DNA of 64,000 nucleotides, from the sequence record NC_028780.1; one strand, written 5' to 3'. The notes under the pieces were generated by a model. The model ran no database searches and was not told the DNA's origin. It worked only from the letters and a program-made list of their open reading frames with translations. The position numbers and the translations under genes were made by a program. Positions 2,030-48,607 of the stretch are shown in pieces; positions within the stretch are counted from its first letter, which is position 1, and the number at the start of each line of letters is the position of its first letter. The stretch is from Escherichia phage slur07.

Positions 2030-2510
2030 TTTTAAAAACTCGCTGGTATGATTTAGATGATGGGGACGATGGCATTTCAGTCGATAGAGTTGACTGGAGC
2101 GGCTGTTCTGAAGATACAAAGAAACGATTAATTAGGGAGTTTAGAATGGGATATCAAGCAGTTAAGCCATCTACTGTAACAGATGATAAATTCGTGTGTA
2201 TTCAAAATGGTCGTGCTAAGTTAACGAACGCTGATTGGTTCACAGATAAGAAGGTTATTCTGTGGTATATTATTAGTTTTCCTGTGACATCATTTGTATT
2301 TTGCTTCTTTGGAGAAAGTCCAGTAGGCAGAACGGAAGATTGGATTCTTTTAATTATACTTGTTAATATTTTTACAGCAGCAGTACTATCAGGAATATGG
2401 TGCGTGTTCATTGAAATGCCATGGCGTTTACGCAGACAGCAAAAGATTTATGATGAAAAGAAATATGCTCAAAATTTAAATAGCTTTATCACTGAATGCA
2501 GGAAATTAAA

Positions 2511-2514
<4 letters not shown>
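2026..2514 (+). CDS. membrane protein (paralogue set)
   Basis: ATG 2026 overlaps upstream stop (ATGA); TM segments; tail SFITECRKLK. Confidence 0.6.
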
Positions 2515-3755
<1,241 letters not shown>

Positions 3756-3756
3756 T

Positions 3757-3786
3757 GTTTACTTCCTCCAAGGACTTTGATACTAT
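3757..3786 (+). promoter_or_regulatory. T4-type early promoter
   Basis: GTTTAC 3757-3762, 18-nt spacer, TACTAT 3781-3786. Confidence 0.5.
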
Positions 3787-3813
3787 ACATTCATCAACTA
3801 CTTGGAGGAAATT

Positions 3814-4230
3814 ATGACTCGTATCAATTTAACACTTGTTTCTGAACTGACCGACCAACATCTTATGGCTGAGTATCGTGAATTGCCGCGTGTTTTTGGT
3901 ATAGTTCGTAAACATGCGGCAAATGGTAAGCGGGTTAAAGATTTTAAAATATCTTCCGAGTTTATTTTAGGCTCTGGTCATGTTACGTTCTTTTACGATA
4001 AGTTAGAATTTTTGCGAAAGCGTCAATCAGACATTATAACGGAATGCTTAAAACGTGGGTTTAGTATAAAAGATACTGAAGTTCCTGACATCAGCGATAT
4101 TCCAGCAGAATGGAAAAATGATTATAATCCATGCAAATCAGCTATTAAATTGAGTCAACAACGACTCGATGAAAAAATTTTAATGAAGCCACACTGGTAC
4201 AAGTATTACGGCAAAAATATTTACATTTAA
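3814..4230 (+). CDS. denV: endonuclease V (pyrimidine-dimer DNA glycosylase)
   Basis: 138 aa starting [12 protein letters not shown]...; matches T4 DenV length and sequence as recalled. Confidence 0.9.
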
Positions 4231-4239
4231 AGGAAACAT

Positions 4240-4713
4240 ATGAAAACATATCAAGAATTTATTACTGAAGCAGCTATTAATTCTCAAATTATTGCTGAAT
4301 CTTTTACTGATCTTTTGAAATTTAAAAAAGGTCAAAAAATCACTGCTGTATTGGATGATGGTACAGAAGTTGAGATGGATGTACAGGGATATAATTATGC
4401 AGTAGATGGAAAACTGTATAATAAATCTCATGCTAAATTTGATTCATTTGACGACTTTGTTAATACAGTTGAAGATGAAAAAACTCGTAGATCCATTGCA
4501 ACTGGTGATGCTAAGGTTCTTATGGCACACGGCCATGAACGCATTCGCGCTAAGCAGAATAAAATGGGCGAAGATAATTTCGCATTAGTTGGTTATCAAT
4601 CTGGTAAACAAACTTATGGTTATCAGCGTACTGCTACCATGTATAACAAAAATGGTAAAATCGCTTTCGTGAATAGTAAAGGTTCTGTTCAGTACGTCAA
4701 ATCATTCAAATAA
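4240..4713 (+). CDS. internal protein with capsid-targeting sequence
   Basis: 157 aa, N-terminus MKTYQEFITEAAINSQ (T4 IP-type CTS, ITE cleavage motif). Confidence 0.75.
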   Translation: MKTYQEFITEAAINSQIIAESFTDLLKFKKGQKITAVLDDGTEVEMDVQGYNYAVDGKLYNKSHAKFDSFDDFVNTVEDEKTRRSIATGDAKVLMAHGHERIRAKQNKMGEDNFALVGYQSGKQTYGYQRTATMYNKNGKIAFVNSKGSVQYVKSFK

Positions 4714-11244: not shown

Positions 11245-11275
11245 GTTTACTTTCCGTTTGAGCTGTGGTACTATA
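11245..11275 (+). promoter_or_regulatory. T4-type early promoter
   Basis: GTTTAC 11245-11250, TACTAT near 11270. Confidence 0.55.
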
Positions 11276-11302
11276 CAACTATCGGATAAAGAGGAGAACA
11301 TC

Positions 11303-14792: not shown

Positions 14793-14815
14793 TTTCAAAA
14801 ATTTTTCACAAAACT

Positions 14816-14845
14816 GTTTACAAGCATAAAGCTTTATGGTACTAT
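14816..14845 (+). promoter_or_regulatory. T4-type early promoter with A/T UP element
   Basis: GTTTAC 14816-14821, TACTAT 14840-14845; upstream AAAAATTTTTCACAAAACT. Confidence 0.6.
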
Positions 14846-14889
14846 ACAACTATCAACTGATACGGATTTGGAGAATAAAATGAAAACTG
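14837..14889 (+). repeat. promoter-leader-start cassette, near-identical copy at 42058-42110
   Basis: 53 nt identical except 2 positions, runs from -10 through RBS into first 3 codons. Confidence 0.8.
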
Positions 14890-16252: not shown

Positions 16253-16254
16253 TT

Positions 16255-16298
16255 GTTTACAAGACCGTTCCTCTGTGGTACTATACAACTATCAACTA
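16255..16298 (+). repeat. early-promoter core cassette, 43/44 identical to 42037-42080
   Basis: GTTTACAAGAC(C/T)GTTCCTCTGTGGTACTATACAACTATCAACTA; includes -35 and -10. Confidence 0.8.
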
Positions 16299-41932: not shown

Positions 41933-41955
41933 AGGGACCTCCGGGTCCCTTTTTC
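41933..41955 (+). terminator. rho-independent terminator
   Basis: AGGGACC-TCCG-GGTCCCT followed by TTTTT. Confidence 0.55.
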
Positions 41956-42036
41956 ATACAAGTAATATAAATCTATACTTATGAAAAACAGATGATTCTG
42001 GACCTTTAGAATTCCCTAAAAAATTTTCACAAAACT

Positions 42037-42066
42037 GTTTACAAGACTGTTCCTCTGTGGTACTAT
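42037..42066 (+). promoter_or_regulatory. T4-type early promoter (cassette shared with 14816 and 16255)
   Basis: GTTTAC 42037-42042, TACTAT 42061-42066. Confidence 0.6.
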
Positions 42067-42110
42067 ACAACTATCAACTAATACGGATTTGGAGAATAAA
42101 ATGAAAATTG
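42058..42110 (+). repeat. promoter-leader-start cassette, copy of 14837-14889
   Basis: 51/53 identical. Confidence 0.8.
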
Positions 42111-42337
42111 TTTATGGTTGCTTAGCAGTGTGTTTAGTTGCATTAGCCGCTGTTCCATTTATTGATATTGAAAATGATACTCAGAATGTGATTGAATCTA
42201 ATACTGTTATTCACATGAATGGTAAAGTATCAACAAAAATTGATGATAATCTTCATATGAATACTAATGGAACGCTGGGTGTTCAATTAGGTAATACCTG
42301 TGTAAGCACTACTGGAGTAATTACTACTTGTATTTGA
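42101..42337 (+). CDS. small secreted/membrane protein
   Basis: 78 aa with signal peptide. Confidence 0.5.
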   Translation: MKIVYGCLAVCLVALAAVPFIDIENDTQNVIESNTVIHMNGKVSTKIDDNLHMNTNGTLGVQLGNTCVSTTGVITTCI

Positions 42338-42347
42338 GGAAATTATT

Positions 42348-42728
42348 ATGAAAATCGCTATTTTGATTATTGCATTAGGTCTTACTGGCTGTGTAGCTCA
42401 AGGACCAGTAGTAAATCAGTCTGATGCAGGAAAAATTGTAAACTGTTCAAGCAAGTTTTATAATCCTAATGTCAAGTGTTATAAAGAAGCTCCAAAACAG
42501 ACAGTAGAACAAATGCAGGCGAATTTTGACGAAGCTATTCGTCCAGATGAATCTGCTCAAGCATATCGTAATTCGGATGTAATTACACGCGAAGAAAAAA
42601 TTGAAAACTACTGCGCCGAAATTTGGGCTAATTGGGCTAATAATTACCAATGGCGTACTGGTAAAAATGCTCCGATGGAGTATGTAGTGAATTCTTATAA
42701 TTCATGCGTAAAAAATTTGACTAAGTGA
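42348..42728 (+). CDS. lipoprotein
   Basis: signal peptide with lipobox LTGC. Confidence 0.55.
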   Translation: MKIAILIIALGLTGCVAQGPVVNQSDAGKIVNCSSKFYNPNVKCYKEAPKQTVEQMQANFDEAIRPDESAQAYRNSDVITREEKIENYCAEIWANWANNYQWRTGKNAPMEYVVNSYNSCVKNLTK

Positions 42729-42735
42729 GGAAAAG

Positions 42736-42987
42736 ATGGAAACTTTAGTAGCAGGTTCAATTTTTATGGTTTTAGTTTCAGGCGTGTTGGCTATTATTAT
42801 ATACATGCTTCCATGGTTCATTGCCTTGATGCGTGGGTCAAAATCAACAGTAGGAATCTTTTTCACGTCTTTACTGTTTAACTGGTCAATTATTGGTTGG
42901 TTTATTACATTTATTTGGTCAATTGCGGGTGAAACCAAAAAGTCTGCACAGCCAAATCAGGTAATTATCATCAGAGAGAAGGAATGA
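42736..42987 (+). CDS. imm: superinfection-immunity membrane protein (Imm-like)
   Basis: 83 aa, two TM helices, location between 43 and 42 as in T4. Confidence 0.6.
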   Translation: METLVAGSIFMVLVSGVLAIIIYMLPWFIALMRGSKSTVGIFFTSLLFNWSIIGWFITFIWSIAGETKKSAQPNQVIIIREKE

Positions 42988-43133
42988 AAAGCAAAATTAT
43001 AGCAGCATTGCTTTTAATCTTGATGGTTATAATAAGTATATACTATAGTGTAACGGTTCCTCTTATGATTCCAACTATTATTTTAGGTTGGGGTTTATTA
43101 CTGTTACAAGTTAAATATGAATGTATCAATTGA
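42984..43133 (+). CDS. small membrane protein
   Basis: 49 codons, hydrophobic, ATGA overlap. Confidence 0.4.
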   Translation: MKSKIIAALLLILMVIISIYYSVTVPLMIPTIILGWGLLLLQVKYECIN

Positions 43134-43140
43134 GGTTTAA

Positions 43141-43881
43141 ATGATTAGTGACTCTATGACAGTTGAAGAAATCCGTCTTCATTTGGGGCTTGCATTAAAG
43201 GAAAAAGATTTCGTAGTTGATAAAACTGGCGTTAAAACTATTGAAATTATTGGCGCATCATTTGTAGCAGATGAACCGTTTATTTTTGGCGCTCTTAATG
43301 ATGAATACATTCAGCGTGAACTTGAATGGTATAAATCTAAGAGCTTGTTCGTTAAAGATATTCCGGGTGAAACACCGAAGATTTGGCAACAAGTAGCATC
43401 TTCTAAAGGTGAAATTAACTCGAATTATGGTTGGGCTATCTGGTCAGAAGATAACTATGCCCAGTATGATATGTGTTTAGCTGAACTTGGTCAAAATCCT
43501 GATTCTCGGCGCGGTATCATGATTTATACTCGTCCATCTATGCAGTTTGACTACAATAAAGATGGTATGTCAGATTTCATGTGTACGAATACAGTACAAT
43601 ACCTGATTCGTGATAAGAAAGTCAATGCAGTAGTAAGCATGCGCTCAAATGACGTGGTCTTCGGATTCCGTAATGATTATGCATGGCAAAAATACGTATT
43701 AGATAAATTAGTATCTGATTTGAATGCAGGCGATTCAACTCGTCAATATAAAGCAGGTTTTATTATATGGAATGTTGGAAGTCTTCATGTATATTCTCGT
43801 CATTTTTATTTGGTTGATCATTGGTGGAATACTGGCGAAACTCATATTGTGAAAAAAGACTATAAAGGTGAGTGGAAATGA
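43141..43881 (+). CDS. 42: dCMP hydroxymethylase
   Basis: 246 aa; thymidylate-synthase-like; size and position match T4 gp42. Confidence 0.93.
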   Translation: MISDSMTVEEIRLHLGLALKEKDFVVDKTGVKTIEIIGASFVADEPFIFGALNDEYIQRELEWYKSKSLFVKDIPGETPKIWQQVASSKGEINSNYGWAIWSEDNYAQYDMCLAELGQNPDSRRGIMIYTRPSMQFDYNKDGMSDFMCTNTVQYLIRDKKVNAVVSMRSNDVVFGFRNDYAWQKYVLDKLVSDLNAGDSTRQYKAGFIIWNVGSLHVYSRHFYLVDHWWNTGETHIVKKDYKGEWK

Positions 43882-44720
43882 TTCAATTCGTAATTCCAAG
43901 TTATCAGCGTGTAGGGGCAGTTTCTGCCCTTGATATGTTTCCGACTGATTATGAACCGCATATTGTAGTGCGTGAACACGAAGAAAAAGCTTATTATGAT
44001 GCCTATGGGTCTAGAGCTAAAATTATAACTATTCCTGATGATGTAAACGGAATTGCCGGTACTCGTAAAGCAATTACTGATATGTATGCAGGTCAACGAA
44101 TCTGGATGATTGACGATGATACTACTATTCGTATGAGTTCAATGCGAAAAAGAGATGACCGTCGTTGTGTAGATAAAGTCAATCAATTAACCCGTGAACA
44201 GTTCTATGAATTGATTCAATACGTCGAAGATGCCATGGATTGTGGGTATTATCATGGTCATGCTCGTCTACCTATTTTTAAAATTACTTCATCTTGGGGT
44301 AATTATCGTGAAAATTCATATGGATTCACGAATACATGGTATGACCTTGGAAAACTTACAACAGAACAAATTGGGTATGGAAAAATTGATTTATGCGAAG
44401 ATATGTATGCATTTCTCAATTTAATTAATCAAGGTTATCCGCATTTGGCCTTGTTCAAATATCTGGTTGTATCTGGAAAAGCACAAGCTCCTGGCGGATG
44501 TAGTTCAATTCGTAGTAATTCTAAACATAATAGAGCGCTTGAACAAATCAATAGAGAGTTTCCAGAGCAAGCTCGTTGGAAAACTTCTAATATTGAAAAA
44601 CGAAAATCGTTGGGTGAAGAAGACGAGCCATTAAAGGTTCTTCGCATGTGTGTTTCTCGTAAAGAAAAATCAGAAGCATTTCATAAGTTTAATGCTATTC
44701 ATCCAATAGCAGTTGATTAA
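43878..44720 (+). CDS. GT-A type glycosyltransferase in the T4 beta-gt position
   Basis: DxD motif IWMIDDDTTI; 280 aa; not the T4 beta-glucosyltransferase sequence as recalled. Confidence 0.65.
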   Translation: MIQFVIPSYQRVGAVSALDMFPTDYEPHIVVREHEEKAYYDAYGSRAKIITIPDDVNGIAGTRKAITDMYAGQRIWMIDDDTTIRMSSMRKRDDRRCVDKVNQLTREQFYELIQYVEDAMDCGYYHGHARLPIFKITSSWGNYRENSYGFTNTWYDLGKLTTEQIGYGKIDLCEDMYAFLNLINQGYPHLALFKYLVVSGKAQAPGGCSSIRSNSKHNRALEQINREFPEQARWKTSNIEKRKSLGEEDEPLKVLRMCVSRKEKSEAFHKFNAIHPIAVD

Positions 44721-48313: not shown

Positions 48314-48607
48314 ATGAAAAAATTTATCTTTGCCACAATTTTTGCTTTAGCTTCTTGTGCTGCTCAGCCTGCTATGGCAGGTTATGATAAAGATTTGTGC
48401 GAATGGTCTATGACTGCTGATCAGACTGAGGTTGAAACTCAAATTGAAGCAGATATTATGAATATCGTTGAGCGCGATCGCCCTGAAATGAAAGCTGAAG
48501 TGCAAAAACAGCTTAAGTCTGGTGGTGTAATGCAGTATAATTATGTTCTGTATTGCGATAAAAACTTTAATAATAAAAATATCATCGCTGAAGTGGTAGG
48601 TGAGTAA
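48314..48607 (+). CDS. sp: spackle periplasmic protein
   Basis: 97 aa with signal peptide; size and position match T4 Sp. Confidence 0.75.
   Translation: MKKFIFATIFALASCAAQPAMAGYDKDLCEWSMTADQTEVETQIEADIMNIVERDRPEMKAEVQKQLKSGGVMQYNYVLYCDKNFNNKNIIAEVVGE

What the first reader, a model, noticed from the sequence alone, without database searches (positions are those of the whole stretch)
42101..43133. Four small secreted/membrane ORFs in the imm locus
Between 43 and 42 there are a signal-peptide protein (78 aa), a lipoprotein (126 aa, lipobox LTGC), an 83-aa two-TM Imm-like protein and a 49-aa TM peptide. The first is driven by a cassette promoter. The cluster looks like a superinfection-exclusion / envelope-modification module larger than a single imm gene.
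Basis: partly seen in the sequence, partly recalled or inferred. Interest (0 to 1): 0.4.

Follow-up and report, generated by a model that had tools for sequence, protein, structure and literature searches.

The report
Known small envelope genes around T-even imm
The four small membrane or secreted genes between DNA polymerase and dCMP hydroxymethylase are real, but they are already-catalogued T-even phage genes: a strain-variable secreted peptide, the imm.1 lipoprotein, the known immunity gene imm and the tiny Y02C membrane peptide; only the lipoprotein–imm pair looks like a conserved unit.

Summary
Window 42101-43133 holds four consecutive + strand ORFs with the described features. They sit behind a gene-43 terminator and a repeated early-promoter cassette.

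None is new. ORF126 is T4 imm.1 (DUF5481). ORF83 is Imm (82/83 identical to T4). ORF49 is T4 Y02C (Pfam Phage_T4_Y02C); it is intact in T4 but not annotated in RefSeq. ORF78 is phrog_4189, present in about 320 T-even genomes.

Only ORF78 is missing from T4 and T6, as a clean 247-bp indel between two ATGAAAAT repeats.

The "one module" reading is only partly supported.
- ORF78 occupies a swap slot. The slot is empty in T4/T6 and holds an unrelated cytoplasmic ORF in T2-type phages. In Dhakavirus the ORF78 homolog lies far from imm.
- Y02C is translationally coupled to imm in two genera. In three other lineages sampled it sits downstream of gene 43 without imm.
- A small lipoprotein gene lies beside imm in seven T4-like genera. 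In Mosigvirus, imm.1 and imm have moved together to sit next to spackle.

A lipoprotein–Imm partnership is a plausible but untested lead. Overall the finding is ordinary.

The parts
41933..41955 (+). Intrinsic terminator after gene 43: the hairpin AGGGACC-TCCG-GGTCCCT followed by a T-run.
   Evidence: Terminator scan, 7 pairs with 5 G-C. The sequence is conserved in T4. The old T4 record M37159 annotates it as a potential termination signal.
42018..42107 (+). Repeated early-promoter cassette. The -35 element TTTACA and the extended -10 element TG-n-TACTAT lie at 42038-42066. They are followed by the leader, the GGAG Shine-Dalgarno sequence and ATGAAAA.
   Evidence: Promoter scan. Copies occur at 14797-14886, 16254-16298 and 11263-11283. 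The cassette is the 5' boundary of the variable gene slot.
42101..42337 (+). ORF78, a small secreted or N-terminally anchored protein (phrog_4189). It has a conserved C-terminal Cys67...Cys77 pair. It is a strain-variable slot gene.
   Evidence: Matches phrog_4189 at E 3e-28. Found in 324 phage records. Absent from T4 and T6 as a 247-bp indel. pN/pS is 0.38. Only 2 further 50%-identity clusters exist among 1.8 billion representatives. The AF2 model has pLDDT 55, with an N-terminal helix and short strands.
42348..42728 (+). imm.1, a lipoprotein of family DUF5481. The lipobox is LTGC and the residue after the lipid-modified Cys is Val.
   Evidence: Matches PF17578 at 235 bits against a cut-off of 27. 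It is the ortholog of T4 imm.1 NP_049661 / P18057. A PROSITE-like lipobox is present. pN/pS is 0.06.
42736..42987 (+). imm, the superinfection immunity inner-membrane protein.
   Evidence: Matches PF14373 at 58 bits. It is 98.8% identical to T4 Imm. It has two hydrophobic stretches. pN/pS is 0.06.
42984..43133 (+). Y02C, a 49-aa hydrophobic peptide (Pfam PF26865 Phage_T4_Y02C; phrog_3610). Its start codon overlaps the imm stop codon (ATGA).
   Evidence: Matches phrog_3610 at E 7e-26. All homologs carry the precomputed label PF26865. It is 47/49 identical to an intact but unannotated ORF in T4. UniRef names the T4 protein. pN/pS is 0.33.
43141..43881 (+). Gene 42 (dCMP hydroxymethylase), shown for context. 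It starts 7 nt after the Y02C stop with no terminator between, so the four ORFs belong to a longer early transcript.
   Evidence: The scan found no terminator between 41950 and 43912.

Best explanation
The interval is an ordinary T-even early-gene block made of parts with different evolutionary behaviour. It is not one dedicated four-gene device.

Shown:
- After the gene-43 terminator, a repeated sigma-70-type early-promoter cassette is positioned to start a transcript that runs through ORF78, imm.1, imm and Y02C into gene 42.
- Each ORF has its own Shine-Dalgarno sequence. Y02C also overlaps the imm stop codon.
- ORF78 sits in a promoter-proximal swap slot. The slot's contents change by recombination between the cassette on the 5' side and the imm.1 start on the 3' side (ATGAAAAT microhomology).
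- imm.1 and imm are under strong purifying selection.
- A small lipoprotein gene lies next to imm in seven T4-like genera.
- Y02C is an old resident of the region downstream of gene 43 and is found both with and without imm.

Inferred:
- ORF78 is exported by Sec. It is either cleaved after Ala16/17 or left N-terminally anchored, and it probably forms a periplasmic Cys67-Cys77 disulfide.
- Imm.1 is lipid-modified at Cys15. Because it lacks Asp at position +2, it is probably sorted by Lol to the inner leaflet of the outer membrane, facing the periplasm.
- Imm and Y02C insert into the inner membrane.
- Imm is the established effector that stops DNA of superinfecting T-even phages from crossing the inner membrane.

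My committed guess (probability about 0.35): the Imm.1-type lipoprotein is an accessory on the periplasmic side of the same envelope-protection pathway, which covers superinfection exclusion and resistance to damage from secondary adsorption.

Y02C may be a small membrane partner of Imm in T-evens (about 0.2). ORF78 is an unrelated accessory gene that merely uses the promoter.
For: Identity and arrangement.

Transcription signals and cassette repeats.

Slot variability:
- T4, T6 and CT01 have the cassette leader fused directly to the imm.1 ATG.
- Genomes with ORF78 or with the T2-type ORF share the same 3' junction, GAGGAAATTATT-ATGAAAATCGC.
- The T2-type 83-aa ORF occurs in 38 records.
- CT01 carries a rearranged copy of the locus with a duplicated cassette.
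- The Dhakavirus ORF78 homolog lies near the nudix hydrolase and lysozyme genes, not near imm.

Purifying selection.

Lipoprotein-imm adjacency:
- Immediately upstream of imm in Tequatrovirus, Gelderlandvirus S16, Jiaodavirus Nispero and Muldoonvirus PS2.
- Downstream of imm in Gaprivervirus SP18/VR20/MN01 and Dhakavirus IME08.
- In Mosigvirus, imm.1 and imm are inserted together between 61.4 and sp. The ancestral locus downstream of gene 43 keeps only Y02C there.
- None of the lipoproteins has Asp at +2.

Y02C homology across genera.
Against: There is no functional evidence for imm.1, Y02C or ORF78. Full-text searches found no paper on them.

The adjacency of lipoprotein and imm may be inherited synteny rather than functional coupling. 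Only the Mosigvirus relocation is an independent event.

Homology between the short imm.1 form and the long (148-178 aa) lipoproteins is not established. The hhalign probability of 96% falls to 5% (P = 0.008) once the signal peptide is removed. A reversed-sequence control gave P = 0.78.

Kosakonia phage 305 keeps a long-form lipoprotein downstream of gene 43, but no Imm homolog was found in the first 100 kb of its genome.

Imm homologs in non-T4-like phages have no adjacent lipoprotein.

From memory of Lu and Henning (1989), not checked here: cloned imm alone confers immunity. If so, imm.1 is not strictly required.

Both structure models are low-confidence (pLDDT about 55) and give no functional clue.
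Confidence: 0.6

Rival explanations
1. All four products form one integrated superinfection-exclusion or envelope-modification module that works together and is inherited as a unit.
For: All four are envelope-targeted, adjacent and co-oriented behind one early promoter. This is the only run of four hydrophobic ORFs in the window. imm is a proven exclusion gene.
Against: ORF78 is absent from T4 and T6. It is replaced by an unrelated cytoplasmic ORF in T2-type phages, and its homolog lies elsewhere in the genome in Dhakavirus. Y02C is found without a neighbouring imm in three lineages. T4 excludes superinfecting phage without ORF78.
Confidence: 0.08
2. The genes are neighbours and nothing more. 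The region downstream of gene 43 is a plastic early region where small non-essential genes accumulate behind a strong promoter. Imm acts alone, and imm.1, Y02C and ORF78 have unrelated envelope functions, or none that matters in the laboratory.
For: Slot turnover and cassette-mediated rearrangements are documented. The lipoprotein is kept without a detectable imm in Kosakonia phage 305. Imm homologs stand alone in unrelated phages. Nothing in the literature links these genes.
Against: imm.1 and imm moved together to the sp locus in Mosigvirus. A lipoprotein is kept within one gene of imm in seven genera despite heavy flux around it. Both imm.1 and imm have a very low pN/pS of 0.06. imm and Y02C overlap as ATGA in two genera.
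Confidence: 0.3
3. ORF49 and/or ORF78 are chance open frames in AT-rich DNA and are not genes.
For: They are short. T4 RefSeq does not annotate ORF49. The local Pfam library gives no hit for either.
Against: ORF49 is intact at the same length in 14 of 14 loci and has cross-genus homologs with 17 invariant columns. Both have pN/pS of about 0.35, both have Shine-Dalgarno sequences, and both belong to PHROG families. ORF78 has homologs at 61-68% identity that keep the same architecture.
Confidence: 0.02

Closest known systems
T4 imm / Imm_superinfect (PF14373)
   Same: ORF83 is 82/83 identical to T4 Imm. It lies in the same position between genes 43 and 42 and has the same two hydrophobic segments.
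   Different: Nothing material. It is the same gene.
T4 imm.1 (DUF5481, UniProt P18057, 'uncharacterized 14.1 kDa protein in imm-Gp43 intergenic region')
   Same: ORF126 is the ortholog at about 97% identity, with the same lipobox and the same position upstream of imm.
   Different: It is 126 aa rather than 125 aa because of a 1-bp indel at the 3' end. In T4 it is driven directly by the cassette leader. Here it has its own Shine-Dalgarno sequence behind ORF78.
T4 Y02C (Pfam PF26865 Phage_T4_Y02C, 'uncharacterized 5.6 kDa protein in Gp42-imm intergenic region')
   Same: ORF49 is 47/49 identical, with the same ATGA overlap with imm and the same 7-nt gap before gene 42.
   Different: None. Note that the ORF is missing from the T4 RefSeq annotation.
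Promoter-early stem-loop (PeSL) cassettes of T4-type phages.
   Same: A stem-loop terminator plus a strong early promoter is repeated around the genome and flanks a slot whose gene content differs between close relatives.
   Different: PeSLs were described in RB49/phi1. Sequence relatedness to those cassettes was not tested. Here the 3' recombination point is the start of imm.1 (ATGAAAAT), not a second cassette.
Phage superinfection-exclusion lipoproteins (T5 Llp, lambdoid Cor, Streptococcus Ltp)
   Same: They offer a functional analogy for Imm.1: a small phage-encoded lipoprotein, made early, that acts at the envelope.
   Different: No sequence similarity to any solved structure was found. 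Imm.1 is 96-99% conserved among T2, T4 and T6, which use different receptors (established knowledge of T-even phages, not tested here), so a receptor-blocking role like that of Llp is unlikely. The function is untested.
T4 Spackle (sp, 61.3)
   Same: It is a periplasmic early protein in the same exclusion pathway. In Mosigvirus, sp lies immediately downstream of imm.1-imm. The window's own sp is at 48314-48604.
   Different: It has no homology with any of the four ORFs. Sp inhibits the gp5 lysozyme (PMC7677548). No such activity is known for these ORFs.

Membership tests
Imm_superinfect (PF14373) / T4 Imm | Profile match above Pfam's gathering score. | tested here: met
   58.2 bits against a cut-off of 27.9, covering residues 22-63. 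Also matches phrog_1039 'immunity to superinfection' at E 4e-32.
Imm_superinfect (PF14373) / T4 Imm | Orthology to T4 imm: near-identity and a position between genes 43 and 42. | tested here: met
   98.8% identity to T4 Imm. The locus is colinear with T4.
Imm_superinfect (PF14373) / T4 Imm | Confers exclusion of superinfecting T-even phage. | not testable with these tools
   Requires infection assays.
DUF5481 / T4 imm.1 | Profile match above the gathering score, and orthology to T4 imm.1. | tested here: met
   235 bits against a cut-off of 27. Aligns with T4 NP_049661 across its whole length.
Bacterial lipoprotein (lipobox, SPase II substrate) | A [LVI][ASTVI][GAS]C lipobox after a positively charged N-terminus and a hydrophobic stretch. 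| tested here: met
   ORF126 reads MKIAILIIALGLTGC, with Cys15 matching a PROSITE-like pattern. The lipobox is invariant across the family alignment. Lipid modification itself was not tested.
Bacterial lipoprotein (lipobox, SPase II substrate) | The same feature, tested on ORF78. One UniRef cluster of the 85-aa variant is labelled 'Lipoprotein'. | tested here: not met
   No lipobox match in the window sequence. Cys7 and Cys11 are replaced by Ser or Val in homologs P0019, P0020 and the dhaeg protein.
Phage_T4_Y02C (PF26865) | Homology to the T4 5.6-kDa protein encoded between imm and gene 42. | tested here: met
   47/49 identity to the T4 ORF. All 18 homolog clusters carry the precomputed label PF26865. 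UniRef names the T4 protein. The model is absent from the local Pfam copy, so no direct score was obtained.
phrog_4189 (unknown function) | Profile match over the full length. | tested here: met
   E 3.2e-28, with residues 1-78 matching profile positions 1-71 of 71.
PeSL-type promoter/terminator cassette | Stem-loop terminator plus a sigma-70-like early promoter, repeated in the genome and flanking variable genes. | tested here: met
   Promoter activity and sequence kinship with the RB49 PeSLs were not tested.
Exclusion lipoproteins Llp / Cor / Ltp | Sequence or fold similarity to a characterised exclusion lipoprotein. | tested here: not met
   A profile search of PDB sequences gave no hit below E 0.03, and the listed hits are unrelated proteins. 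The structure model was too poor for a fold search.

The most novel reading that the evidence does not exclude
The Imm.1-type outer-membrane lipoprotein and the inner-membrane protein Imm, perhaps with Y02C as a third small subunit in T-evens, would form a two-membrane exclusion device. The lipoprotein would supply the periplasmic contact that lets an inner-membrane protein divert the DNA of superinfecting phage. This would explain why a lipoprotein gene stays beside imm across seven T4-like genera, and why the pair moved together to the spackle locus in Mosigvirus.
Probability: 0.2. Interest if true: 0.55.

Novelty: already known. Interest (0 to 1): 0.25.

Why it matters
How Imm blocks DNA entry is still not understood mechanistically; a 2019 review (PMC6832632) describes its action as less easily understood than Spackle's. 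If the conserved neighbouring lipoprotein, or the translationally coupled Y02C peptide, turned out to be a partner of Imm, that would give a concrete handle on the problem, and simple deletions could test it.

As it stands, the locus is a well-sampled piece of T-even genomes whose ORFs are already catalogued. The finding mainly restates existing annotation.

There is also a small practical point. T4 RefSeq omits Y02C and mislabels imm.1 as 'iduronate sulfatase'.

Tried and rejected
1. AlphaFold2 of imm.1 with a 17-sequence alignment gave mean pLDDT 55. Only a C-terminal helical hairpin (residues 81-125) reached about 80. AlphaFold2 of ORF78 with 3 sequences gave pLDDT 55. Both models are too poor for a fold search, so none was run.

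2. PDB sequence searches gave nothing significant for the imm.1 family. A single-sequence hit of ORF78 to a baseplate central spike protein (E 0.38) disappeared when the family profile was used. I rejected it as noise.

3. Homology of short imm.1 to the long lipoproteins beside imm in other genera looked strong at first (hhalign 96%). It was driven by the signal peptide. Mature regions alone give P = 0.008 and probability 5%. I treat this as unproven.

4. PADLOC and NCBIfam gave no meaningful hits.

5. Literature searches for imm.1, DUF5481 and lipoprotein plus imm found nothing relevant. The T4 genome review (PMC150520) is not held in the library.

6. An IMG/VR scan with Imm returned only 5 loci, so the GenBank phage collection was used instead.

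7. I considered a receptor-blocking role for Imm.1, like that of T5 Llp. I rejected it as unlikely because Imm.1 is nearly identical in T2, T4 and T6, which use different receptors (the receptor differences are from established knowledge, not tested here).

Full report
**What is there**

The window comes from a T-even (Tequatrovirus) phage, and its + strand runs in the direction of early transcription.
- ORF78, 42101-42337.
- ORF126, 42348-42728.
- ORF83, 42736-42987.
- ORF49, 42984-43133.

Simple hydropathy and pattern tests confirm the described features.
- ORF78 has one N-terminal hydrophobic stretch and Ala-x-Ala-type cleavage candidates after residues 16 and 17.
- ORF126 has the lipobox GLTGC, with Cys15.
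- ORF83 has two hydrophobic stretches.
- ORF49 has one long hydrophobic stretch.

Upstream lie a hairpin terminator (41933-41950) and a TTTACA-17-TACTAT site with an upstream TG (42038-42066). The 90-bp block that carries this promoter, its leader, the Shine-Dalgarno sequence and ATGAAAA recurs at three other places in the window. 'Cassette promoter' is therefore an accurate description. No terminator follows ORF49, and gene 42 starts 7 nt later, so the four ORFs are the front end of a longer early transcription unit.

Among 124 non-overlapping ORFs in the window, 14 are strongly hydrophobic. This is the only run of four, with a rough chance expectation of about 0.02.

**Are they genes?**

Yes. 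Across 7-14 distinct alleles from related phages, pooled pN/pS is 0.06 for ORF126, 0.06 for ORF83, 0.38 for ORF78 and 0.33 for ORF49. ORF49 is intact at exactly 150 bp in all 14 Tequatrovirus loci examined. It also has 47-aa homologs in other genera, with 17 invariant columns in a five-sequence alignment, including I-Y, P-x-M-I-P-T, G-W, L-Q and Y-x-C-x-N.

**What they are**

The region matches 508 phage records at 90-99% DNA identity.
- ORF83 is Imm itself: Pfam Imm_superinfect at 58 bits, and 98.8% identity to T4 Imm.
- ORF126 is T4 imm.1: DUF5481 at 235 bits, UniProt P18057, 'uncharacterized 14.1 kDa protein in imm-Gp43 intergenic region'.
- ORF49 is 47/49 identical to an intact ORF in T4 that RefSeq does not annotate. 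UniRef lists it as 'uncharacterized 5.6 kDa protein in Gp42-imm intergenic region', and Pfam has named a family after it, PF26865 Phage_T4_Y02C.
- ORF78 belongs to phrog_4189 and is found in 324 phage records. An exhaustive HMMER search of 1.8 billion representative proteins found only two further clusters, at 61-68% identity. These keep the signal sequence and the C-terminal C-x9-C motif but not the two N-terminal cysteines.

The alignment with T4 is colinear and near-identical except for one clean 247-bp indel that removes ORF78. In T4, T6 and CT01 the cassette leader GGAGAATGAA abuts the imm.1 ATG directly. In genomes with an occupied slot, imm.1 has its own leader, GAGGAAATTATT. ORF78 and imm.1 both begin with ATGAAAAT, which is the likely microhomology behind the indel.

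It is met for three of the four ORFs.

**Is it one module?**

Comparison across genera splits the cluster into parts that behave differently.

(i) ORF78 occupies a swap slot.
- About 64% of roughly 500 Tequatrovirus records carry ORF78. There are two main alleles about 83% identical to each other, plus an 85-aa variant with a 7-residue duplication in the hydrophobic segment.
- About 6% carry an unrelated 83-aa ORF with no hydrophobic segment. This is the T2 type, and it comes with the leader of a different cassette copy.
- The rest, including T4 and T6, were not examined record by record. The remainder examined (T4, T6, CT01) have an empty slot.
- CT01 shows a rearrangement scar with a duplicated cassette.
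- In Dhakavirus the ORF78 homolog lies near the nudix hydrolase and lysozyme genes, far from imm.
- ORF78 is therefore an accessory gene that borrows the promoter, not a conserved partner of imm.

(ii) Y02C is separable from imm.
- It follows imm with the same ATGA overlap in Gaprivervirus.
- In Mosigvirus, Kanagawavirus and EcS1 it sits downstream of gene 43 behind a SIS-family sugar isomerase gene, inside a DNA-hypermodification cluster, with no imm beside it.

(iii) A small lipoprotein gene stays with imm.
- It is immediately upstream of imm in Tequatrovirus, Gelderlandvirus S16, Jiaodavirus Nispero and Muldoonvirus PS2.
- It is downstream of imm in Gaprivervirus and Dhakavirus.
- In Mosigvirus, the imm.1 homolog (33% identity) and imm have moved together into the 41-61 region. 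They are inserted between 61.4 and sp, so the known exclusion genes lie side by side as imm.1-imm-sp. The old locus downstream of gene 43 keeps only Y02C there.
- None of these lipoproteins has Asp after the lipid-modified Cys. By the E. coli +2 rule (established knowledge) this predicts sorting to the outer membrane.

**Caveats on the lipoprotein-imm link**

- The short (122-126 aa) and long (138-178 aa) lipoproteins may not be homologous. The hhalign signal is carried mostly by the signal peptide: 96% probability with it, 5% (P = 0.008) without it, against P = 0.78 for a reversed-sequence control.
- Kosakonia phage 305 has the lipoprotein and Y02C downstream of gene 43, but no Imm homolog in the first 100 kb of its 175-kb genome.
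- Imm homologs in unrelated phages stand alone.
- The adjacency could largely be inherited synteny. Only the Mosigvirus move is an independent event.

**Function**

Imm and Spackle are the two established T4 exclusion proteins (PMC7677548). A 2019 review describes Imm's action as less easily understood than Spackle's (PMC6832632). I found no paper dealing with imm.1, Y02C or ORF78.

Structure prediction gave low-confidence models. For imm.1, pLDDT was 55, with a C-terminal helical hairpin that would bring the conserved Cys89 and Cys120 together. For ORF78, pLDDT was 55, with a helix followed by short strands. PDB, PADLOC and NCBIfam searches were uninformative.

The most likely picture is as follows.
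- Host RNA polymerase fires the cassette promoter early in infection.
- The four products go to the envelope. ORF78 reaches the periplasm or stays N-terminally anchored. Imm.1 becomes a lipoprotein facing the periplasm. Imm and Y02C insert into the inner membrane.
- Imm does the known exclusion job.
- Imm.1 is the best candidate for an accessory in the same pathway (my estimate about 0.35).
- Y02C is a possible small membrane partner (about 0.2).
- ORF78 is unrelated.

**Verdict**

The single-module interpretation is only partly supported. The one lead worth a bench test is the conserved, co-relocating lipoprotein-imm pair.

Noticed in passing
L019 (Shigella phage CT01) 1209-2046: The locus is rearranged. 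It reads: cassette promoter plus about the first 37 codons of imm.1, then an internal ORF78 fragment, then a second copy of the cassette leader and a full imm.1. This looks like a recombination scar at the promoter-cassette/ATGAAAAT junction.
   Followed up: partly
L020 (phage T2) 849-1100; 38 phage records in all: T2-type phages carry an unrelated 83-aa ORF with no hydrophobic segment in the same slot between the promoter and imm.1. Its leader matches a different cassette copy, the one at window 16254-16298. Homologs at 54% identity occur elsewhere in Dhakavirus genomes.
   Followed up: partly
window 14797-14886, 16254-16298, 11263-11283: These are further copies of the early-promoter cassette (GTTTACA...TGGTACTATACAACTATCAAC plus leader). 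Two of the three visibly follow a GC-rich hairpin (copy14.8k, copy11.2k); none is evident upstream of the 16.2-kb copy. They drive other small early ORFs.
   Followed up: partly
L001 (T4 NC_000866) 3728-3877 and 4137-4514: There are two annotation problems in T4 RefSeq. The 49-aa Y02C ORF is not annotated although it is intact. imm.1 is named 'iduronate sulfatase', which nothing supports; its only family match is DUF5481. The label has spread to many E. coli and Salmonella records.
   Followed up: yes
L009 (Mosigvirus pEK20) 2071-3106: imm.1 homolog, imm and spackle lie side by side in the 41-61 region, so the known T-even exclusion genes and the lipoprotein form one cluster in RB69-like phages.
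   Followed up: yes
L013, L014, L022 (Mosigvirus, Kanagawavirus, EcS1), about 2438-2581 / 3501-3644: The Y02C homolog is wedged, with overlapping stop and start codons, between a SIS sugar isomerase gene and a 559-561 aa ORF that carries an NTP-transferase domain in EcS1 (annotated only as hypothetical in the other two). This lies within a probable DNA-hypermodification gene cluster. It is an odd place for a tiny membrane peptide.
   Followed up: no
L027 (Acinetobacter phage LZ35) 1486-1808: An Imm homolog in a non-T4-like phage is followed by an ATGA-overlapping 37-aa one-TM ORF with no evident similarity to Y02C by eye. This may be a recurring pattern of Imm plus a small coupled membrane peptide, but it is a single case.
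   Followed up: no
window 43872-44720: The gene after gene 42 is a 280-282 aa glycosyltransferase of the TAGT family (beta-glucosyl-HMC-alpha-glucosyltransferase type, as in T2 and T6). It overlaps the end of gene 42. T4 has beta-gt and the segA homing endonuclease at this position.
   Followed up: no
window 41954-42070, - strand: A 38-aa antisense ORF covers the promoter cassette. It is annotated as a hypothetical protein in phage a48 and is almost certainly spurious.
   Followed up: no
L016 / L007 (UGKSEcP2 and relatives), ORF78 variant: An 85-aa allele of ORF78 has a 7-residue tandem duplication (LVALAVV-LVALAAV) inside the hydrophobic N-terminal segment. This lengthens the segment to about 26 residues, which fits a membrane anchor better than a cleaved signal peptide.
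   Followed up: no
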